IMG/VR virus record: IMGVR_UViG_3300025122_000007 | Location: 1-37,619 of that record | Direction: 5' to 3' (one strand) | From: a virus | Taxonomy: Duplodnaviria; Heunggongvirae; Uroviricota; Caudoviricetes | Length of the DNA: 37,619 nucleotides | Shown: in pieces, positions 25,373 to 37,619 of the stretch | How the letters are laid out: every line of letters begins with the position of its first letter | Numbering within the stretch: position 1 is the stretch's first letter | Position numbers and translations under genes: made by a program | Notes under the pieces: model-generated | Databases searched by the model: none | Seen by the model: only the letters and a program-made list of their open reading frames with translations | Told to the model about the DNA's origin: nothing

Positions 25373-25778
25373 TGGTGGACGTGGGGAGAGTCGAACTCCC
25401 GTCCGCAAACACTCATGTGTTCATCGATACAATCATTCCTGTTAACAGGCATAGGGGCGTCGTTAGGACGCCTCCACCAGGGTAGATTTAAGGTCTCTCC
25501 AAGACAGGGGTGAGTAGTTTATATCCTCCGCTCTCAGAGGTGAATTTATCAAAGCGACTTTCTGTTCAGAGGCAGTCACCGCCCGTGGCTTTATGCGAGT
25601 GCGAGCTCGCCAGATCCGAAGATCATAGCGAAATCGGCCCTCAGGCCAGCGAACACAGTCTCGATTGACTCGATCATATCTGCATTTACTTTGTTTGGGT
25701 TTGTATTTAAGTGAGCCAACCCACTCACTGATTGCGATTCATACAGTCTTGTATCCACGTCGATACCTTTTCACGCCC
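25373..25778 (-). ncRNA. ssrA: tmRNA, 406 nt, one-piece
   Basis: Acceptor stem GGGCGUG/CACGUCC with G3:U70, discriminator A and encoded CCA. 5' GGUAUCGAC, T-arm GGGAG-UUCGACU-CUCCC, pk1 (GUGAGU/GCUCAC with GGGUU/AACCC), and an internal tag ORF. Confidence 0.96.
25591..25683 (-). other. tmRNA tag reading frame: (A)ADMIESIETVFAGLRADFAMIFGSGELALA*
   Basis: The resume codon GCA after GUAAAU is inferred. The frame is open for 30 codons and ends LALA-UAA. Confidence 0.8.
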
Positions 25779-26220: not shown

Positions 26221-26408
26221 TAGTTCTCCTTAATGTCCATAAAGCCCATCCATTTCAGGGTCTTATCCAGGACTGCATTGATTTCTTTAGCTAATTCCAC
26301 GTCTTTGCATTGGATAGCTAAGGCATAGAGATCAGTTCCGCTCTTGTAAAATTCATAGGTTATCATCTGGTAATGCAGATTGTCCTTGAGTTCCTTCGTC
26401 GTACTCAC
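26220..26408 (-). CDS. Small hypothetical protein overlapping the RT 3' end
   Basis: 62-aa ORF whose stop abuts the spoVG start. Confidence 0.5.
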   Translation of the reverse strand: MSTTKELKDNLHYQMITYEFYKSGTDLYALAIQCKDVELAKEINAVLDKTLKWMGFMDIKEN

Positions 26409-27222
26409 CTCTATAACTCCTCATCAAGCTTTCATATTGAGAAGGCTTGACTCCTTTGATGAACTCCAGAATGCCAAGCATGCTTTCGTCCATCTCTTCT
26501 CCCTTCAGCCCCAAGAAATGGAGCTGTTGGCGCAACTGATTTCTTGTCTTCTTCGATACACCAAGTGTGTCGTTGTTGACTACGATTCCAGTTACAGACT
26601 GTCGTTGGAAGTAAGGCATCTTCTTGATCTTGCGATCATTGAGCTTAAAGCCAAATTCCTCAGCTACGGTACGTATCCTGTTTACAAACCAATCAGGTAT
26701 CTCATCTCCAGAAAAGGTAAGATCATCTGCATACCGTGTATAGGTAAGCTCCTGACTGTCCGCTACTCTTTTCAACTCAAAATCCATAGGCTTAAGTACT
26801 ATGTTTGAGATGACTGGACTGGTACATGCTCCCTGTGGAAGACATCCATTCAAGGTGCAGAGAGATGTTATCTTCTCTACATCCCATTCATCATTGACAT
26901 CAAGGTGCTCTTCCTCTCTTGTAAGAGCTTTGAAGATCATGAAGCTGGTAACAGAGGGAAAGAAGTCTTTGAGATCTATATTGATCACATACTTCTTTGC
27001 CTTATGAAGCTCAGCATTTGTAAGAATGCTTCTGTCTGCTCTGAAACCATGTGCAGCTGGATGCAAAGGAACCTTATCAAGTCGTTCTTTTGCCAGCTTG
27101 TGCCACTCGATGATGTCACCGATAGGTTCAGTGATCTGCCGAAACTTTCCACTCTTTTTCTTTACTGAATAGATTCGATAGTAACTATGTCTATTCGCTA
27201 AGATGTCACTGAGTCCAGACAT
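26353..27222 (-). CDS. Retron-type reverse transcriptase
   Basis: KKSGKFRQI, AHGF, NAELH (NAxxH), IDLKDFFPS, LPQGACTSP, catalytic YADD, and SVTGIVVN (VTG). Confidence 0.93.
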   Translation of the reverse strand: MSGLSDILANRHSYYRIYSVKKKSGKFRQITEPIGDIIEWHKLAKERLDKVPLHPAAHGFRADRSILTNAELHKAKKYVINIDLKDFFPSVTSFMIFKALTREEEHLDVNDEWDVEKITSLCTLNGCLPQGACTSPVISNIVLKPMDFELKRVADSQELTYTRYADDLTFSGDEIPDWFVNRIRTVAEEFGFKLNDRKIKKMPYFQRQSVTGIVVNNDTLGVSKKTRNQLRQQLHFLGLKGEEMDESMLGILEFIKGVKPSQYESLMRSYRGEYDEGTQGQSALPDDNL

Positions 27223-27845
27223 TCTTCTTCACCTGGTAGGAAGTTTCTCCATGAAGAATGAACCTTGCTGACTCCTGCTGTCATTGGTTTCCATTCTGGA
27301 ATGTAAGGCTTCGATAGAAGTTTCATTCCTGCTTCTTTTGGAGTTCTGTTCCCCTTCCTTTGATTGCACTTGATACATGCTGTCACACAATTATCAAAGT
27401 TGGTTCCAGGGAAACGCATGGTTGGATGGTTTCTTGGTATCACATGATCTATGTTGATACGCGGCCTGCCATTGCTATCTCTTCTGTTTCTCTTGAAATC
27501 ATTACCACAGTACTGGCATCTATAGTTGTCTCTTTCAAAGACACCACCTCTGCTGTATTTCAGTTCATGCCTAGGTAGTCTGTCGTACTTGGTAAGAATG
27601 ACCACTCTAGGAACTAGGATGGGTGTTCCTGGACCATGCCTAACAAAGTCCTCGAACAATTCCATCTGCTTTTCATTGACTGGCAGAGTTCTCCACGCAG
27701 AGAAATCATGAACCATTCCAGTTCTATGATCTAGAGCGTTTACCGTTCCAGAGCATAGTCTTGTGAATGCTCTTCCTACTTCAATGATATGAATAGGAAA
27801 CCATTGTTTGTTTAGTACTAAAGTATCACCACGGATGCCCATCAT
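27198..27845 (-). CDS. McrA-like HNH endonuclease
   Basis: RDNYRCQYCG, NIDHVIPR and VTACIKCNQRKGNRTP. Overlaps the RT start by 25 nt. Confidence 0.9.
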   Translation of the reverse strand: MMGIRGDTLVLNKQWFPIHIIEVGRAFTRLCSGTVNALDHRTGMVHDFSAWRTLPVNEKQMELFEDFVRHGPGTPILVPRVVILTKYDRLPRHELKYSRGGVFERDNYRCQYCGNDFKRNRRDSNGRPRINIDHVIPRNHPTMRFPGTNFDNCVTACIKCNQRKGNRTPKEAGMKLLSKPYIPEWKPMTAGVSKVHSSWRNFLPGEEECLDSVTS

Positions 27846-28193: not shown

Positions 28194-29264
28194 TCAGACT
28201 GCCAGTTCTACCTCGGCTACTTGATCCTCAGTCGTCTCTACCACTTCGATCGTAGGAGTCTCTTCGACGACTGTCGCCTTCTTCTTCTTACGCTTTCGTG
28301 GATATGCAACCTTATAAAGGTCTAGCTCCTTCAGGGTGGTATCAAAGTTTACGATCTTCTCATGAGCAGCTTGGATAGCTGTTCTGGTCAAACGAACAGG
28401 AGTTATCCTGTTGGTGTTAGCCTTGAAGTAGACCATATGATAACCCAACGGTTCATGTCTCAATATTACTTGCAGTGCATTGTATAATACTTGTGCTGCA
28501 GTCATATTGACCGAAATACTTTGGGGGTTGGCCAAAGCTCTCATTGCACAGTTCTCAGGGTTTTCTGCTTCGGTGGGCAACAAGCCCATCTCTCCGAAAG
28601 CACTTGGGAACTGTTCAAAGAAACAAGGGAGCCTGAATGCCTTTGGAATAGGCACTTCTTCAGAATCTAAGTCTGGGTCTTCCAAAGCAGAGATGGTGTC
28701 CCTGCTTTGTCCTTTATACGCGATGACCATTTGACCTGTGAACTGTTCGTTTCCTGAGTCCAACCAGAAAGTCTCTAGGTGCTCAGGTCTCTTCATGTAC
28801 CACTTGAAGAACAGTGCTCTTGTCTTGTTGTTGTCTACGCATGTAATCAAGATAGGACTTGCGTTGGTAGATTGGGTATAGATCAGAGCATTGATGTCTT
28901 CGTTGCTCTCTAGATAGCCATTGTAGTAGGCGATATCAATGCCAAAGGCATTTGAATATCTCTTTGCCATGACTTCAGCTTTGTACTTGTTGACATCAGC
29001 TCTTACAAACTGTTGTCTTACAAGATTCTTATCTTCTACCTTGTCACCATCAACCAAGACCAGCCTTAGGCTGTCAGGTTTCTTGTTGCCCATGCCACCA
29101 CGTCTCAACTTGTTGATGAGTGAGATGTATCGTGCCAGGTGTGGAATCAGATAGCCGCCAGTTCCTCCACATCCCACTACGATGACGACCTTGTCGATAG
29201 ATCTATCGGAAGGCCCCCGATTATAATAGCCGTGGAAGTTATGTACTGTATTAATTTCTCGCAT
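28194..29264 (-). CDS. ThiF/E1-like ubiquitin-activating enzyme (PRTRC-type; likely start MREINT)
   Basis: VVGCGGTGG, LVDGDKVEDKNLVRQQF, KAEVMA, TCVDNNKTR, WLDSGN, and a conserved-position Cys in ENCA. Confidence 0.9.
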   Translation of the reverse strand: MREINTVHNFHGYYNRGPSDRSIDKVVIVVGCGGTGGYLIPHLARYISLINKLRRGGMGNKKPDSLRLVLVDGDKVEDKNLVRQQFVRADVNKYKAEVMAKRYSNAFGIDIAYYNGYLESNEDINALIYTQSTNASPILITCVDNNKTRALFFKWYMKRPEHLETFWLDSGNEQFTGQMVIAYKGQSRDTISALEDPDLDSEEVPIPKAFRLPCFFEQFPSAFGEMGLLPTEAENPENCAMRALANPQSISVNMTAAQVLYNALQVILRHEPLGYHMVYFKANTNRITPVRLTRTAIQAAHEKIVNFDTTLKELDLYKVAYPRKRKKKKATVVEETPTIEVVETTEDQVAEVELAV

Positions 29265-29271
29265 TGTATCC

Positions 29272-30591
29272 TTACTCGCCAAACGTTTCGCTTGTCTCGT
29301 GAAAATCTCGAAGAGCCTCGTTGATAGTTTCATTGTGACCTATGGCCGCCAATCTACCTACGATATGATAGATGTCATCTTGATCAGCTATGTTACAGAT
29401 TGCATCGATGTAGTCGTAGATCGCTGCTTCGTCAGCAAGGAGCCAGCTGAACTCTTCGAATTGATCTGGAGGATCAATACCTACCAAGTATTCAGAGACC
29501 CAATCTGGATCTTCTCCGAAGGTATAAAGAAGCTCTCTATCATCCTTGCCAAGACCAAACTTCTCCCACCAGTCGACAGTCTGTTCACCAAAAGCATCTC
29601 TTATCTTCTGGATCCTGTCTTCTTCCTTCGGAAGGTAGTACGTCCTGCTCGGACCCCACTCCCCAAAGAGGCTCGGATCGAACGAGGACTTGGTCTTGAA
29701 TTCAACTGGAATTCCATTGACGATTGAGTCTGGTCTGCCTTGAAAGCGGCTCCTTGGCCTGACAACCTGCTTTCTTGCAGCTACGTGTGCAATATTCGCC
29801 CGCCATACAGCTTCGGGAATTTCTACCACAGGAATATTTTCCAATCCATCCACTGTGTCGGATTCGATATCAAAGATCTCGTCAAGACTAAGTGGAACCT
29901 CTTGACCTGTAACACAGGAGACTGCACGCAAAGCCCATTCAGGCAGAGCTTTCTGGATCTTGCCAACTACTCCATAAAGTCTGAAGGCTTTCTCGTCAGC
30001 AGTGTCGGTTCCTGAAAAGTAACCAGACATTGTGTTGTGAGAATGAATCTCCATAGCTGTGATGAGGTTCGGATCCGCTTCTTTGGTAAGATCACGCTCA
30101 TAACGGACTCCACCCTTGCTGACCACATGCTTGGGAACGTCAATGAAGTACTCCTGCTTCTCGATGTCAAAGTAGATGACTGCGTATGCCTCAGCCTCAT
30201 TCATCTCTTTACAAATTTTTCTGAAAAAGGTGACGATCTGAGCAAAGTGATTGATTGGGATACGTGGAAGAGTGAGCTCAAAATTAGGCTCGACGTCTTC
30301 AGGGTGTCCAGGAATCTTGAACTCAGCTTCTCTTGTTGTAATTGTTCCAATTGGATTGCTTTCAATTACATAGAGGCCATCACCACGGACAATCTTTGTT
30401 CGTGGCTTGTCATACGTACCACTCTCAGACACGTCGGTCACATAACCATAGTATCTATTTTGGAGCTGTTCTCTTACGGTGCTCTTGTTCTTTTGAGTTT
30501 CCATGACTGCCTCTTTCTTGGCAGCGGATTGCCTATCAATCATATTTTTTAGAGCAGCGATGCTGCCATTCGTACTAGTAAGTTTGTCCAC
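29272..30591 (-). CDS. Prokaryotic JAB/JAMM isopeptidase (PRTRC protein A-like) with N- and C-terminal extensions
   Basis: E...HSH-x7-S-x2-D (EIHSHNTMSGYFSGTD), and RLYGVVGKI. Confidence 0.88.
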   Translation of the reverse strand: MDKLTSTNGSIAALKNMIDRQSAAKKEAVMETQKNKSTVREQLQNRYYGYVTDVSESGTYDKPRTKIVRGDGLYVIESNPIGTITTREAEFKIPGHPEDVEPNFELTLPRIPINHFAQIVTFFRKICKEMNEAEAYAVIYFDIEKQEYFIDVPKHVVSKGGVRYERDLTKEADPNLITAMEIHSHNTMSGYFSGTDTADEKAFRLYGVVGKIQKALPEWALRAVSCVTGQEVPLSLDEIFDIESDTVDGLENIPVVEIPEAVWRANIAHVAARKQVVRPRSRFQGRPDSIVNGIPVEFKTKSSFDPSLFGEWGPSRTYYLPKEEDRIQKIRDAFGEQTVDWWEKFGLGKDDRELLYTFGEDPDWVSEYLVGIDPPDQFEEFSWLLADEAAIYDYIDAICNIADQDDIYHIVGRLAAIGHNETINEALRDFHETSETFGE

Positions 30592-31255
30592 TGAATGTCT
30601 CCCTGATTAGATCCTTGATGGTCTTGTTTAGCTGCTTCCCCTCAAGAGGAAAGGTTCCATTCCTGACACATGTTGAGATGAATCCATCAGTGCCACCTAG
30701 GTGGCCGTTGAATGGTGTTGAATAGAATGCATTCACAACCCCTCTGCAAGAGGCGATGTCTGTAGCTTCAATACGATTGCTTCCCCAACAGATGGCACCA
30801 CCGCTATACGTGTTGCCATAGCCTGTGAAGTTATACAGTGTATCGGTATCAAACTTGACGCCATGTTGAAGAGCAAAGACCTTGGAGTCTCTGTATCTAT
30901 TTGGCTGCCGACCACCTCGTCCTGCTGCCTTGGGTGCACCTAGCTGGAAGGCAAAGATCAAGTGAGGAAATGGCACCTGCTTGATGATCTCTCCGGTATA
31001 GCCCCAACGAATGTCCACCTTACGAGGACCACTCTGATAAAGAACTGCCTCTGTGTCACCTTGGCGGCCGACAAAGACAACGCCGGTATCAGAACAAGGC
31101 ATCATGCCTGTATCAAATGCAGTTTCAGAAAAGAGATACTTCAAGTCATCAGGATTGATGGTCTTGGTAGACTGAGAGTCTCCTCGTACCTCTGTAATTG
31201 TGGTTCCCTGCTCATCGATTTCGATGATCAGTTTGTCTGGATCAGTTCTTGGCAC
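30575..31255 (-). CDS. Prokaryotic E2 family D-like protein (PRTRC protein B-like)
   Basis: PFPHLIF...KVFAL...LY...GNTYSGGAICWG...FYSTPFNGHL, with the Cys in ICWG. Confidence 0.8.
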   Translation of the reverse strand: MPRTDPDKLIIEIDEQGTTITEVRGDSQSTKTINPDDLKYLFSETAFDTGMMPCSDTGVVFVGRQGDTEAVLYQSGPRKVDIRWGYTGEIIKQVPFPHLIFAFQLGAPKAAGRGGRQPNRYRDSKVFALQHGVKFDTDTLYNFTGYGNTYSGGAICWGSNRIEATDIASCRGVVNAFYSTPFNGHLGGTDGFISTCVRNGTFPLEGKQLNKTIKDLIRETFSGQTY

Positions 31256-34701: not shown

Positions 34702-35367
34702 TTATGCACCTACGATTTGATCGACCATTCCCTTCTTACCGTACTCCAAACAATCCTCTGGACTCATCCAATAGTCATGCTTCAAGTCTGATCGAACCTT
34801 GGACTTACGTTGTCCACAAGTCTTTGCGATTCGATTTACTGCCTGTTCATGAAGCATCTCTGTCCACCTCATGTCATCTTTCAATTCTTGGTATGTACCC
34901 CAAGCTATAGATGATAATTGATGAATCATCATATAAGAGCTGGGTGTGATAACCCTGCCCCCTGGAGCACCACTCATAGCAATGAGAGCACCCATGCTTG
35001 CAGCATAGCCTTCTACATATGTGATGACTGGTGAACTGATGGCGTTCATGCAATCAATGATTGCATTCCCATCGATGATGCTACCTCCAGGAGAATTGAT
35101 GTACATGATAATAGGGGGATTCATATCCCACCTATTATATTCAGCATCATATTCTCTTAGGGCTCTAATGATCTTGGAAGATACCGTCGTTCCAATTGGC
35201 TTGTCCAGATAGATTTCTCTTCGCTCATCAACAATGATGATCTCGTTTTGATCTCCACCCAAGCTACTCTTTGTTCCCTTCTTCTCAGAAGGAGTTGAAG
35301 AATTAGTAGGCGGTCGTCTGTTCAGTAACCTGTTCAAATCGAACGGGTGAGTTGCGGAGTGACTCAA
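34702..35367 (-). CDS. clpP: ClpP-family serine protease
   Basis: YINSPGG, catalytic S in AASMG, H in MIHQ, and D in DYWMS. Confidence 0.93.
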   Translation of the reverse strand: MSHSATHPFDLNRLLNRRPPTNSSTPSEKKGTKSSLGGDQNEIIIVDERREIYLDKPIGTTVSSKIIRALREYDAEYNRWDMNPPIIMYINSPGGSIIDGNAIIDCMNAISSPVITYVEGYAASMGALIAMSGAPGGRVITPSSYMMIHQLSSIAWGTYQELKDDMRWTEMLHEQAVNRIAKTCGQRKSKVRSDLKHDYWMSPEDCLEYGKKGMVDQIVGA

Positions 35368-35602
35368 GTGTATCTCCCTGCTTTACGGATCTGCGATTGA
35401 CTCCGGAAAGAACTAGATGCTTGTGACCATTACTGGCACGTGTGATGATGTCTACGATGAGACCTCGACAAACGATAGTGTCTTCACGATAGACCAATAC
35501 GCCGTCGTTGATCTGGAAGTCTGCAAAGTCCGCTGGGGCTGTGAGTGTGAACTCATTGCTGGTGGGATCTACAAAGAACCCATCTACTGTAATTCTATTC
35601 AT
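35303..35602 (-). CDS. Hypothetical beta-rich protein (possible EF-Tu domain II-like barrel)
   Basis: LVLSGVNRRSVKQGDTL resembles the last strand and turn of translation-factor domain II barrels. Confidence 0.35.
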   Translation of the reverse strand: MNRITVDGFFVDPTSNEFTLTAPADFADFQINDGVLVYREDTIVCRGLIVDIITRASNGHKHLVLSGVNRRSVKQGDTLESLRNSPVRFEQVTEQTTAY

Positions 35603-35874
35603 TAGAATATTTCTCCTTCTTCGTCTTCAGTTACAGAGATGACAATGATGTCTCCCCTCAATCTGAAGTGATGTGCCTTGACCTCACGGTCAGGATCTGG
35701 GTTAAGGTGTCTTACATAGGCCCGAAGCAAGTCGGTGACCTTGGCCACCTCTTCTTCTGTTACCTCGAATACATCCTTAAATTCTTCTTGAGCAAACTGT
35801 AGAAGTTCTCGTTCCCACTTTGGATTACGATCACCTTCCCAGTACTCTCTAGGTGAGTATAATTTTCTCGCCAT
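35602..35874 (-). CDS. Hypothetical protein (likely start MARKLY)
   Basis: AAGAGG precedes the ATG at 35874. Confidence 0.55.
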   Translation of the reverse strand: MARKLYSPREYWEGDRNPKWERELLQFAQEEFKDVFEVTEEEVAKVTDLLRAYVRHLNPDPDREVKAHHFRLRGDIIVISVTEDEEGEIF

Positions 35875-36134
35875 GTTATGACCTCTTAAGAGGATTAGAT
35901 CTGATAGAGGATAGGACACTGCCTACCCTATAACAGTCGAGATGTGTTCACGCTGAGGAGCTCAGCAGTCACTGCAGTGATGTCCCAGTTCGAGTCGACG
36001 AATCTGTTCGGCGACCTCGAGGACATGTCCTGGTCATCTCATGAAGAGCTATAGTCGTGGCCTTCTCGGTTCCGCGAACTGCTGTGCAGTGATTACGCGA
36101 GACCGAGAGGCCGTAGACTATAGCTCTTCCTGTT

Positions 36135-36159
36135 AAGCTCCTGTTTTCACAGTACACTT
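36135..36159 (-). repeat. Copy 2 of motif stem-GUA-CUGU-GNRA-ACAG-GA-stem
   Basis: AAGU GUA CUGU GAAA ACAG GA GCUU. Confidence 0.75.
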
Positions 36160-36616
36160 TATGGTGAGCTAAGCTTGGGCACTGCCCAACCATAGCTCAC
36201 TTTATTTAGATATTTTATCTAAATAATAACTAAAGTGGACTGTTGTTTAAATTAAGAGTGAGCTGACTCAGCTGTGCTGACAAAACGCGAACGGGATTTA
36301 AACATATGTCTACTTTAGTGACACTAGTCTCCTTCTTTTGGAAGTACGACTATTGGGACCCAGGCCTGGACACCGCCAAGTCTAGGGCCATCTTCGAGCG
36401 CGCCGGAGCGCTCTTCGTCCGGCATGCGCAGCTGGCCAAAACTCCAGATCTATATCTGGCGCCGTCGGGCTGCTCGTTTCCCGGATCCGCCACCTGGTGG
36501 CGGACTTCACGTCCGGGAAGATCTTCGAAGAGCGAGACCCGACTTTGTCCTGAATGAGAGGCAGGTGACTGTGTCACCGACCGCTGAACATTCTGGATCT
36601 TAGTCGGGTCTCTACC

Positions 36617-36645
36617 TCTACCTCCTGTTTACACAGTACGGTAGA
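36617..36645 (-). repeat. Copy 1 of motif stem-GUA-CUGU-GNRA-ACAG-GA-stem
   Basis: UCUACC GUA CUGU GUAA ACAG GA GGUAGA. Confidence 0.75.
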
Positions 36646-36646
36646 T

Positions 36647-36688
36647 AAAAGAAAGGCCCCGCCCCCTGTGTGCACCGGGGACGAGGCC
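36647..36688 (-). terminator. Rho-independent terminator after the TROVE gene
   Basis: 12-bp stem GGCCUCGUCCCC/GGGGGCGGGGCC followed by UUUCUUUU. Confidence 0.8.
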
Positions 36689-36719
36689 TGACACCATGGC
36701 TATTAAGCCTAGGTTTTCT

Positions 36720-37619
36720 TTAGAAGTTCTTTCGAATGTATTCGATAGTAGGGGTCACCTTCTTATCTCCTACGCTCTCCAGTCCTTCAAACTGTGCGAA
36801 AGTATTGAAGATCTTCTCAGACCATCCAGATACCAGATTCACATTCTTGTCTTCGGACGGAACCTGAGATCCACTTCCGTAAGGCATGAGGTCGACTGAA
36901 TGAATCTTGACCTCTCTATTATATTTTCTACGATAGCTGTCTATTGCACTGTATAGGGCTGGCGCATCTGCTCCATATCCCATACTTCCATAGCACTGCA
37001 TGTCGGAAAGGATGACAATCCTATCGACCCTTAGCTTAGAAGCACTAAGCAACTCGACTGCCTTATGAGCATAGGTTGCATGACCACACTTCCTTGCTGC
37101 AGTCTGAATCTTACCCATCGTAGCAATGACAGAGTCATTCTTGTTCAGGACTGCCATCGCTGCTGACTGTCCGAATGGAATGACTACTCCATTCTCAGAT
37201 GCCTTGAAACAGATAGCTCCCATCAACTGAGAGACCTGCGCTGCATTGAGTGAAGACCTCTGAGAGACCGTCGCTCCATACATGGACCCAGAGACATCGA
37301 CCAGCACTGCAGTGTTACCTGACAGTTCTACGATGTTCTCTACGGACATATCCAAAGCACGTTCAACGGCTGCTTGTAGATTCTGTACTGAGAAATGATT
37401 GACAGCCGTTGCTCGAGGAGCAGCGTAATCATATCCACTATAGAAATTACTTGCTGCTGAGAACTTCTTTGTCTCTGCCCCTGCCTCTTCCAATGCGATT
37501 CCTGCTGTGAAGAATCTAAATGGAAGCTGACGAGACCTTGCGACCTGCTCAGGGTCGGTAAGCTTTGCAACTACAGTAGCTATCGTAGTTTGAGAGACAT
37601 TGGCCTGAACCAAGTTCCT
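36720..37619 (-). CDS. Ro60/Rsr-like TROVE-vWA ribonucleoprotein (5' part outside the window)
   Basis: QLPFRFFTA (end of TROVE), vWA MIDAS DVSGS, GHAT, and RIVILSDMQ. Confidence 0.88.
   Translation of the reverse strand, partial: RNLVQANVSQTTIATVVAKLTDPEQVARSRQLPFRFFTAGIALEEAGAETKKFSAASNFYSGYDYAAPRATAVNHFSVQNLQAAVERALDMSVENIVELSGNTAVLVDVSGSMYGATVSQRSSLNAAQVSQLMGAICFKASENGVVIPFGQSAAMAVLNKNDSVIATMGKIQTAARKCGHATYAHKAVELLSASKLRVDRIVILSDMQCYGSMGYGADAPALYSAIDSYRRKYNREVKIHSVDLMPYGSGSQVPSEDKNVNLVSGWSEKIFNTFAQFEGLESVGDKKVTPTIEYIRKNF

What the first reader, a model, noticed from the sequence alone, without database searches (positions are those of the whole stretch)
36043..36645. Duplicated RNA module beside Ro60: GNRA hairpin plus long hairpin
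Two units share one architecture on the minus strand. Each has stem-GUA/GA internal loop-CUGU-GNRA-ACAG; the loops GUAA and GAAA both fit GNRA and the lower stems differ yet both pair. After 4-5 nt comes an 79-87-nt imperfect hairpin capped by C(ACA)G, with GCUCUUC at its 3' foot. Structure kept while sequence changes argues for a functional RNA and fixes the strand. Bacterial Ro60 genes are often flanked by Y RNAs, so these are candidate Ro60 ligands, though the GNCGAA-type Y-RNA motif was not found. The long mismatched hairpins also resemble msd templates, so trans use by the RT is an alternative.
Basis: partly seen in the sequence, partly recalled or inferred. Interest (0 to 1): 0.8.

Follow-up and report, generated by a model that had tools for sequence, protein, structure and literature searches.

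The report
Conserved two-hairpin RNA module in phage
The two look-alike folded RNA units beside the phage's Ro60 gene are real, are three copies rather than two, and recur in two related phages that have no Ro60 gene at that spot, so they look like an undescribed RNA module of the phage's tRNA-gene boundary and not a proven Ro60 partner.

Summary
The 845-nt gene-free spacer after Ro60 holds three units (A, M, B), not two.

Each unit, read on the gene-sense (minus) strand, consists of:
- a 25-30-nt hairpin with an invariant GUA/(G/A)A internal loop (a sarcin-ricin-type signature) under a GNRA or 5-nt loop;
- a 1-8-nt linker;
- a 71-93-nt near-perfect hairpin capped by C(ACR)G.

GCUCUUC follows units A and B, but not M.

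The same module lies at the same syntenic place in two other phage lineages: after a tRNA-Met gene and before a 99-aa beta-barrel/ClpP/CCA-enzyme operon. The small hairpin shows clear covariation. A covariance model built without A and B finds them as the next-best hits.

The module is not in Rfam and is not YrlA-like. It lacks the Ro60-binding GNCGAA motif, and in the two relatives it is not next to Ro60. This phage also carries a weak YrlA-like hit and repeated handle motifs in its tRNA array. The Ro60-ligand and RT-template readings are therefore not supported.

Best reading (about 0.45): a new RNA module co-transcribed with tRNA-Met, serving as a processing/stability element or giving stable small RNAs. 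Transcription is untested. The long hairpins do not fix the strand.

The parts
36720..37619 (-). 3' part of the Ro60/TROVE gene. The full gene is 575 aa and runs on to genome position 38447.
   Evidence: Pfam TROVE and Ro60 vWA; full-length protein P0001
36654..36689 (-). Terminator-like GC-rich hairpin after Ro60, followed by UUUCUUUU (36646-36653)
   Evidence: -27.9 kcal/mol on the minus strand against -19.5 on the plus strand
36617..36645 (-). Unit A small hairpin: UCUACC-GUA-CUGU-GUAA-ACAG-GA-GGUAGA
   Evidence: 24.5 bits with a model that did not include it
36534..36612 (-). Unit A long hairpin: 79 nt, 11-bp perfect foot, C(ACA)G cap
36527..36533 (-). GCUCUUC after unit A. Its UCUUCGA part (36525-36531) forms the 5' strand of the next helix.
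36391..36531 (-). GC-rich four-way junction: a 7-bp closing stem UCUUCGA/UCGAAGA around three hairpins. Holds the only GACGAAG (about 36412-36418). A 1-nt indel polymorphism lies at about 36480.
36325..36352 (-). Unit M small hairpin: UAGUC-GUA-CUUC-CAAAA-GAAG-GA-GACUA.
36228..36320 (-). Unit M long hairpin: 93 nt, AU-rich, C(ACA)G cap
36164..36226 (-). Perfect 11-bp AU palindrome (36202-36226) and a GC hairpin with a C(AGU)G cap (36164-36200), between units M and B
36135..36159 (-). Unit B small hairpin: AAGU-GUA-CUGU-GAAA-ACAG-GA-GCUU
   Evidence: 23.8 bits
36043..36129 (-). Unit B long hairpin: 87 nt, 14-bp perfect foot GAAGAGC.../...GCUCUUC, C(ACA)G cap
35946..36032 (-). Further hairpins downstream of unit B. 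They contain UCGUCGAC, the only 8-mer shared by the spacers of all three phages.
35602..35874 (-). First gene after the spacer (90 aa). It is followed by the 99-aa beta-barrel gene (35303-35602), ClpP and the CCA-adding enzyme.

Best explanation
The units are copies of a previously undescribed, roughly 105-130-nt RNA module read on the gene-sense (minus) strand. Its first part is a short hairpin whose stem is interrupted by an invariant 5'-GUA / 3'-(G/A)A loop. This is the core signature of the sarcin-ricin (bulged-G, S-turn) motif. The hairpin is closed by a GNRA or 5-nt loop. The second part is a 30-38-bp, almost perfect long hairpin with a conserved C(ACR)G triloop, often followed by GCUCUUC. 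The module belongs to the boundary between a tRNA-Met gene and the operon for the 99-aa beta-barrel protein, ClpP and the CCA-adding enzyme. It occurs there in three phage lineages, in 1, 2 and 3 copies. In this phage a Ro60 gene, with its own terminator, lies between the tRNA and the spacer; it is absent there in the relatives (insertion or loss). Most likely the spacer is transcribed with the tRNA/Ro60 transcript. The module would then act as RNA in one of two ways. Either the long duplex is a substrate for a double-strand-specific nuclease of the RNase III class, separating the RNA-gene island from the downstream mRNA, or the unit is released as a stable small RNA. In both cases the S-turn hairpin, the triloop and GCUCUUC would serve as recognition points for a protein or for RNA-RNA contacts. 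Shown here: the architecture, its covariation, its synteny, its non-coding nature, and that it is not a YrlA/Y RNA. Inferred: transcription, processing, and any binding partner.
For: Three units, and no others in 120 kb, match the descriptor stem-GUA-stem-loop-GA-stem; shuffles give about 0.7 sites per strand. Relatives carry the same module: G001 has two units (one a GGA variant) and L120 has one. All six units fold into the same shape, with z from -4.5 to -8.9. Model R1, built from M, G001_u2 and L120_u only, finds A (24.5 bits, E 5e-4) and B (23.8 bits, E 8e-4); noise starts at 18 bits in 240 kb. Covariation in the small hairpin: 92% of cells paired, 6 of 10 pairs changed on both sides, score 0.79 against 0.25 in shuffles (0 of 500 reach it) and at most 0.14 when partners are slid. 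The only change in the 3' dinucleotide is GA to AA. This is the isosteric A-G to A-A substitution documented for the upper trans-Hoogsteen/sugar-edge pair of sarcin-ricin motifs (PMC8450098). The long hairpins share no sequence between phages yet keep their length, perfect feet and ACR cap. Synteny: the 221-234-aa gene, tRNA-Met, the spacer and the 99-aa gene are collinear in all three lineages. In L120 the unit starts 21 nt after tRNA-Met on the same strand. The spacer is non-coding: gene callers leave it empty, the plus-strand ORF has no relatives, and that ORF is frameshifted by an indel in 3 of 10 compared assembly contigs. All called genes from 1 to 65 kb, and the tRNAs, lie on the minus strand.
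Against: The long hairpins fold as well or better on the antisense strand, by up to 10 kcal/mol. They hold few G-U pairs: 4 of 190 on the sense strand against 9 of 195 on the antisense. Their perfect 11-21-bp feet would also suit a DNA-level palindrome. A terminator-like hairpin precedes unit A. Only three lineages are known, two of them found through neighbouring proteins. The covariation alignment was fitted to the model. The S-turn assignment rests on sequence signature only. The conserved triloop is not something bacterial RNase III is known to read (own knowledge).
Confidence: 0.45

Rival explanations
1. The units are Y-RNA-like ligands of the phage Ro60. They would bind its outer surface and tether it to another factor, as bacterial YrlA/Yrn RNAs do.
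For: In this phage the units lie directly downstream of Ro60 on the same strand. At 105-131 nt with a long stem, their size and shape resemble Y RNAs. Y RNAs are commonly encoded next to Ro60, and unrecognised Y RNAs are expected (PMC4201824). The Ro60 of a Thermus phage binds loosely defined hairpin RNAs (PMC12135203).
Against: No Rfam YrlA (RF02553) or Y_RNA match at E<=10 over 35700-36900, whereas the same library gives a weak YrlA hit elsewhere in this genome. The units have no GNCGAA(N)G motif and no tRNA-like domain. In G001 and L120 the module follows tRNA-Met with no Ro60 between. Phage-like contigs whose Ro60 is about 40% identical to this one have no such spacer. Better candidate ligands exist: repeated handle motifs, seen by eye to include GACGAG, in 4-5 copies in the tRNA array.
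Confidence: 0.12
2. The module is a cis-acting leader of the downstream operon (99-aa protein, ClpP, CCA-adding enzyme). It might act by protein-mediated translational or stability control, or by a put-like RNA that modifies RNA polymerase.
For: The last unit always lies 155-262 nt upstream of the first gene of that operon. The short motifs GCUCUUC and UCGUCGAC are shared downstream of it. The 99-aa protein has a weak translation-factor beta-barrel fold. HK022 put elements are paralogous two-hairpin RNAs (own knowledge).
Against: Copy number varies from 1 to 3, and units A and M lie 0.4-0.8 kb from the operon. No U-tract terminators follow the units. In this phage a different 90-aa gene lies between unit B and the 99-aa gene. 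Co-occurrence with the 99-aa gene is partly by construction, because that gene was the search anchor.
Confidence: 0.15
3. The long hairpins act in DNA. They could be palindromes or extruded single-strand hairpins used in replication, recombination, packaging or hairpin-type promoter recognition. The RNA fold would be incidental.
For: The feet are perfect over 11-21 bp with almost no G-U pairs. Stability is equal or better on the other strand. The whole spacer folds strongly on both strands, z -11 and -16. An AT-rich stretch with a perfect palindrome lies between units M and B.
Against: The small hairpin is asymmetric: it has GUA/RA and G-first loops on one strand only, and two G-U pairs with no A-C apposition on the sense strand. 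Its helices covary while its unpaired bases stay fixed, which suits a folded single strand rather than a duplex protein site. The cumulative GC-skew trend does not turn, and gene strand does not switch, across the spacer. The hairpin sequences are unique, so they are not a repeat or MITE family.
Confidence: 0.15
4. The units are msr-msd-like templates used in trans by the phage reverse transcriptase.
For: The order 'small hairpin then long imperfect hairpin' recalls msr-msd. An RVT_1 reverse transcriptase with an adjacent HNH gene lies at 26353-27845.
Against: No a1/a2-type inverted repeat brackets a unit; the 5' strand pairs locally. The conserved features (S-turn, ACR triloop) are not retron features (own knowledge).
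Confidence: 0.03

Closest known systems
YrlA / bacterial and phage Y RNAs (Rfam RF02553; Chen et al. 2014, PMC4201824)
   Same: Small structured RNAs of about 100-130 nt, encoded beside Ro60 on the same strand, in multiple copies. They occur in phages rich in tRNA genes.
   Different: There is no covariance-model match, no GNCGAA(N)G motif and no tRNA-like T/D-arm domain. The ends do not pair to form the basal stem. The module persists in relatives without an adjacent Ro60 gene.
T4 RNAC and RNAD, small stable RNAs of the T4 tRNA gene cluster (PMC3014915)
   Same: Phage small RNAs encoded at a tRNA cluster, presumably co-transcribed with tRNAs, with unknown function.
   Different: No sequence or structure comparison was made here. 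Expression of the present units is not shown.
Sarcin-ricin (bulged-G / S-turn) motif hairpins, for example 23S rRNA H95 (PMC8450098)
   Same: A 5'-GUA / 3'-GA core next to a C-G pair, under a GNRA-type loop. The GA to AA change is the documented isosteric variant.
   Different: Only the core (G bulge, U-A, A-G) is present; the flanking trans-Hoogsteen and sugar-edge pairs are replaced by Watson-Crick pairs. Four base pairs, not one, separate the motif from the loop. The 3D geometry is untested.
RNase III processing hairpins between genes of phage T7 and in rRNA/tRNA precursors (own knowledge)
   Same: Long, nearly perfect intercistronic hairpins with internal loops, in a long same-strand phage transcript.
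   Different: A conserved triloop and an obligatory 5' partner hairpin are not features of known RNase III sites. Cleavage is untested.
Retron msr-msd non-coding RNA
   Same: A small hairpin followed by a long imperfect hairpin.
   Different: No adjacent RT and no a1/a2 repeats seen (not formally searched).

Membership tests
YrlA / Y RNA (Rfam RF02553, RF00019) | Match to the family covariance model | tested here: not met
   No hit at E<=10 over 35700-36900. The same library gives a weak YrlA hit (30.7 bits, E 0.006) at L020:16989-17103.
YrlA / Y RNA | GNCGAA(N0-1)G Ro60-binding motif on the 5' strand of the basal stem (PMC4201824) | tested here: not met
   No CGAA lies inside any unit. The one GACGAAG (about 36412-36418) sits in the apical part of a hairpin of the GC-rich junction.
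YrlA / Y RNA | tRNA-like domain (T-arm and D-arm mimic) | tested here: not met
   The folds show two simple hairpins. ARAGORN and Rfam tRNA models find nothing in the spacer.
YrlA / Y RNA | Encoded next to a Ro60 gene | tested here: inconclusive
   Met in this phage. Not met at the syntenic site of G001 and L120. Both are fragments, so Ro60 could lie elsewhere in those genomes.
Y RNA | Binding to Ro60 | not testable with these tools
   Needs a pull-down or gel-shift assay.
Sarcin-ricin (bulged-G) motif | G-U-A on one strand opposite G-A, next to a Watson-Crick pair | tested here: met
   Invariant GUA in 5 of 5 units; GA in 3 and AA in 2. The variant unit G001_u1 has GGA/GA.
Sarcin-ricin (bulged-G) motif | Only isosteric substitutions at the non-Watson-Crick pairs | tested here: met
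   The only change, G to A opposite the A, is the A-G to A-A variant described in PMC8450098.
Sarcin-ricin (bulged-G) motif | S-turn backbone geometry, and the flanking A-A and sugar-edge pairs of the full motif | tested here: not met
   The flanking positions are ordinary Watson-Crick pairs, so at most a minimal core is present. Geometry cannot be tested here.
Retron msr-msd | RT gene directly adjacent, and a1/a2 inverted repeats bracketing the RNA | tested here: not met
   The RT gene is at 26353-27222. The folds show local pairing of the 5' strand and no bracketing repeat, but no dedicated a1/a2 search was run.
RNase III substrate | About two turns or more of near-continuous duplex | tested here: met
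   29-35 pairs on the sense strand per long hairpin, with perfect feet of 11-21 bp.
RNase III substrate | Cleavage by the enzyme | not testable with these tools
   Needs an in vitro or in vivo assay.
Any Rfam 15 family | Covariance-model match | tested here: not met
   Only chance-level miRNA-type hairpin hits in the spacer. The spacers of L120 and G001 give nothing but tRNA-Met.

The most novel reading that the evidence does not exclude
The module defines a new class of phage small RNAs. In this reading the sarcin-ricin-like hairpin and the ACR-capped duplex mimic ribosomal RNA features. The RNA would then sequester or recruit a translation-linked protein: a host ribosome-targeting nuclease, a translation factor, or the adjacent EF-Tu-domain-like 99-aa protein. 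It would form part of this phage's tRNA, CCA-enzyme, tmRNA and Ro60 toolkit for keeping translation running.
Probability: 0.08. Interest if true: 0.8.

Novelty: new variant of a known kind. Interest (0 to 1): 0.5.

Why it matters
Large phages with tRNA arrays carry many unannotated RNAs. This one has clear comparative support and is absent from Rfam. It has a well-defined set of conserved non-Watson-Crick features that a protein or another RNA could read. The results also warn that lying next to Ro60 is not enough to call an RNA a Y RNA: here the Ro60 gene lies beside an RNA module that also exists without it. If the module proves to be a processing signal or a stable RNA, it would help explain how such phages organise the expression of their RNA-gene islands.

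Tried and rejected
- Rfam gathering and E-value scans of the window, the spacer and the relatives' spacers gave no family.
- blastn of the spacer against 50,697 phage records gave no match.
- Ro60-anchored searches gave nothing useful. In IMG/VR the relatives are at most 30% identical. In the 5.8-billion-protein set they are at most 41% identical, and their contigs have no such spacer.
- Rfam on 12 Ro60 loci from other phages and bacteria found only tRNAs.
- Exact-motif scans. The 18-mer in IMG/VR gave one chance hit in coding DNA. The strict motif plus GCUCUUC in metagenomes gave 0 hits. The loose 18-mer in metagenomes gave 76 hits, about the chance number, and none had the long hairpin. The G001/L120-type stem pattern gave only chance hits apart from G001 itself.
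- Searches anchored on the CCA enzyme and the 105-aa protein in IMG/VR found nothing.
- Ten compared assembly contigs of this phage give no usable variation: one 1-nt indel only.
- The plus-strand ORF 36306-36557 as a gene is rejected.
- Spacer-to-spacer blastn between this phage and G001 gave only a 15-mer at E 0.41, so homology rests on architecture, synteny and the model hit.
- The genome search cannot draw relatives for a virus record and cannot reach the ENA/Logan contigs.
- The 99-aa protein fold gave only weak matches (E about 0.01) to translation-factor and F1 beta-barrels. This does not show RNA binding.
- Considered from memory and dropped: CsrA-site, LexA-box, attC, MITE, CRISPR-repeat and k-turn readings. 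Either the covariation preserves pairing rather than sequence, or the loop sizes do not fit.

Full report
**Context.** The window is the first 37.6 kb of a 120-kb IMG/VR phage contig estimated at 56% complete. All called genes lie on the minus strand. They include DNA polymerase III alpha, RecA, a ribonucleotide reductase, PhoH, an RlaP-type nucleotidyltransferase, a reverse transcriptase with an HNH gene, a ThiF/E2 cassette, a CCA-adding enzyme, ClpP and a tmRNA gene. The Ro60/TROVE gene (575 aa) ends at 36720. The next called gene starts at 35874. Between them lie 845 nt that gene callers leave empty in independent assemblies.

**Checking the observation.** Both units are as described. Unit A is a 29-nt hairpin (36617-36645), a 4-nt linker, a 79-nt hairpin (36534-36612) and GCUCUUC. 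Unit B is a 25-nt hairpin (36135-36159), a 5-nt linker and an 87-nt hairpin (36043-36129) ending in GCUCUUC. The shared 18-mer occurs only at these two places in 120 kb. It lies exactly 88 nt from GCUCUUC in both units.

**A third unit.** A structural descriptor (outer stem, GUA, inner stem, loop, GA, outer stem) finds three sites on the minus strand of the 120-kb contig, all in this spacer: 36639, 36347 and 36155. Shuffles give about 0.7 per strand. The third site (unit M, 36325-36352) has an inner stem CUUC/GAAG instead of CUGU/ACAG. It is followed by a 93-nt hairpin (36228-36320). The only three C(ACA)G triloop hairpins with stems of 5 bp or more in the whole contig are the caps of these three long hairpins; 0.4 are expected.

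**The rest of the spacer.** It is also densely folded, with z of -11 on the minus strand and -16 on the plus strand. It contains a terminator-like hairpin with a U-run after Ro60. It also contains a GC-rich four-way junction closed by UCUUCGA/UCGAAGA, a perfect AU palindrome and several more hairpins. The plus-strand ORF 36306-36557 is not a gene. It has no Pfam, phage or Atlas relatives. A 1-nt indel in 3 of 10 compared assembly contigs would shift its frame.

**Finding relatives.**
- Sequence searches with the spacer or its 18-mer found nothing beyond chance.
- The nearest Ro60 relatives are only about 40% identical, and their genes are tightly packed with no spacer.
- The DNA polymerase gave a collinear relative, G001 (41 kb, polymerase 56% identical).
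- An exhaustive profile search with the 99-aa protein downstream of the spacer found only three clusters among 1.84 billion representatives: this phage, G001 and a third lineage, L120.

**Synteny.** The order is the same in all three lineages: a 221-234-aa gene, tRNA-Met(CAU), a structured spacer (1030 nt in G001, about 400 nt in L120), the 99-aa gene, ClpP and the CCA-adding enzyme. Only this phage has a 106-aa ORF and Ro60 between the tRNA and the spacer.

**The module in the relatives.**
- G001 has GAGC-GUA-CUAG-GAUAA-CUAG-AA-GCUC, an 8-nt linker, and a 79-nt hairpin capped by C(ACG)G. GCUCUUC lies 27 nt further on.
- G001 also has a variant unit with GGA/GA, followed by a 71-nt hairpin that is also capped by C(ACG)G.
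- L120 has AGAGC-GUA-CUGC-GCUAU-GUAG-AA-GCUCU, starting 21 nt after tRNA-Met. A 4-nt linker follows, then a 93-nt hairpin with a 16-bp perfect foot and a C(ACG)G cap, running into GCUCUUC.
- All six units fold into the same two-hairpin shape, with z from -4.5 to -8.9.

**Statistical support.** A covariance model built only from M, G001_u2 and L120_u finds A (24.5 bits) and B (23.8 bits) as the next-best hits in 240 kb. Noise begins at 18 bits. On the five-sequence alignment, 92% of cells pair and 6 of 10 pairs change on both sides. The covariation score is 0.79, against 0.25 in shuffles (0 of 500 reach it) and at most 0.14 with slid partners. One caveat is that the alignment was fitted to the model. 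The consensus is stem-GUACU-NN-loop-NN-AG-RA-G-stem.

**Structural reading.** GUA opposite GA, next to a C-G pair, is the core of the sarcin-ricin (bulged-G) motif. The only change seen, GA to AA, is the isosteric A-G to A-A substitution described for that motif (PMC8450098). The full motif's flanking non-canonical pairs are replaced here by Watson-Crick pairs. This is therefore at most a minimal core, and its geometry is untested.

**Strand.** The small hairpins favour the minus strand. They carry GNRA and G-first loops and the S-turn signature. They have two G-U pairs and no A-C apposition, and they fold 3.5-3.7 kcal/mol better on that strand. The gene and tRNA orientation agrees. The long hairpins do not favour it. 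They fold as well or better on the other strand, by up to 10 kcal/mol, and hold 4 G-U pairs of 190 on the sense strand against 9 of 195 on the antisense. Their perfect feet and scarce G-U pairs leave a DNA-level role open.

**Ro60.** The units give no YrlA or Y_RNA match even at E<=10. The same library gives a weak YrlA hit in this phage's tRNA array (30.7 bits). Repeated handle motifs, seen by eye to include GACGAG, occur there in 4-5 copies. Earlier agents read those as the Y-like RNAs (e1-1833008, e1-1833009). The units lack GNCGAA(N)G and any tRNA-like domain. The module also exists at the same site without Ro60 in two lineages. Adjacency to Ro60 is therefore lineage-specific. G001 and L120 are fragments, so Ro60 may still lie elsewhere in those genomes. 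Binding is not excluded, but nothing supports it.

**RT.** The reverse transcriptase lies 9 kb away, and no bracketing inverted repeats were seen around the units (no dedicated search). Nothing supports its use of the units in trans.

**Most likely mechanism.** I read the units as an RNA module of the boundary between tRNA-Met and the downstream operon. It would be transcribed with the tRNA (and, in this phage, Ro60) transcript. The 30-38-bp duplex is of the size cut by RNase III-class enzymes (own knowledge). The invariant unpaired features (S-turn, ACR triloop, GCUCUUC) are the natural recognition points. The product could be a processed transcript boundary or a stable small RNA. T4's RNAC and RNAD, from its tRNA cluster, are small RNAs whose roles are still unknown (PMC3014915). 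Transcription, processing and binding are all inferred. I put this reading at about 0.45. The rivals are a cis-regulatory leader (0.15), a DNA-level element (0.15), a Ro60 ligand (0.12) and an RT template (0.03).

**Verdict.** The feature is real and conserved and belongs to no described RNA family. Novelty is that of a new RNA module built from known parts, with a narrow known range (three lineages) and unknown function. I score interest at 0.5.

Noticed in passing
L021:7342-7789 (-), about genome 64341-64788, outside the window: A GOLLD RNA (RF02032) match of 133.9 bits, E 1.8e-35, just under the gathering score of 150. It lies at the far end of the phage's tRNA array and overlaps a tRNA hit.
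   Followed up: no
L020:16989-17103 (-), about genome 54588-54702: A weak YrlA (RF02553) hit of 30.7 bits, E 0.006, with T-arm-like and D-arm-like hairpins. Repeated handle motifs (families D4, D6, D8) occur in 4-5 copies among the tRNAs.
   Followed up: partly
window 25373-25778 (-): A phage tmRNA gene with an unusually long predicted 30-residue tag. G001 has one too, at L108:7630-8083.
   Followed up: no
window 35303-35602 (-): A 99-aa protein found in only three clusters among 1.84 billion representatives. The model has pLDDT 70. Its fold weakly resembles the beta-barrel domains of IF2, EF-Tu and F1-ATPase. It always lies before ClpP and the CCA-adding enzyme.
   Followed up: partly
window about 36480: The only polymorphism in the spacer across the ten compared assembly contigs of this phage is a 1-nt A insertion in an unpaired linker of the GC-rich junction, present in 3 contigs.
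   Followed up: yes
L076, L087, L074, L038, L036, L067, L084 (metagenome contigs): Seven contigs share a conserved hairpin holding GUACUGUGCAAACAGGAG inside a covarying outer stem (GGUGUCA/UGACGCC), preceded by AATGT repeats. There is no Rfam match. It is probably unrelated to the phage module.
   Followed up: partly
window 26353-27845 (-): A 289-aa RVT_1 reverse transcriptase directly after an HNH endonuclease gene. The region is conserved in G001 (blastn).
   Followed up: no
window 28194-31255 (-): ThiF (E1-like) and Prok-E2_D genes in a row: a ubiquitin-like conjugation cassette in a phage.
   Followed up: no
genome 43654-43727 (-), outside the window: A tRNA with a CUA anticodon, called 'Pyl' by ARAGORN, among 30 tRNA genes.
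   Followed up: no
L120:1329-1394: A perfect 28-bp hairpin in the spacer of the third lineage. G001 has an 18-bp perfect-foot branched hairpin at G001 38635-38740. Long perfect palindromes are a general trait of these spacers.
   Followed up: no
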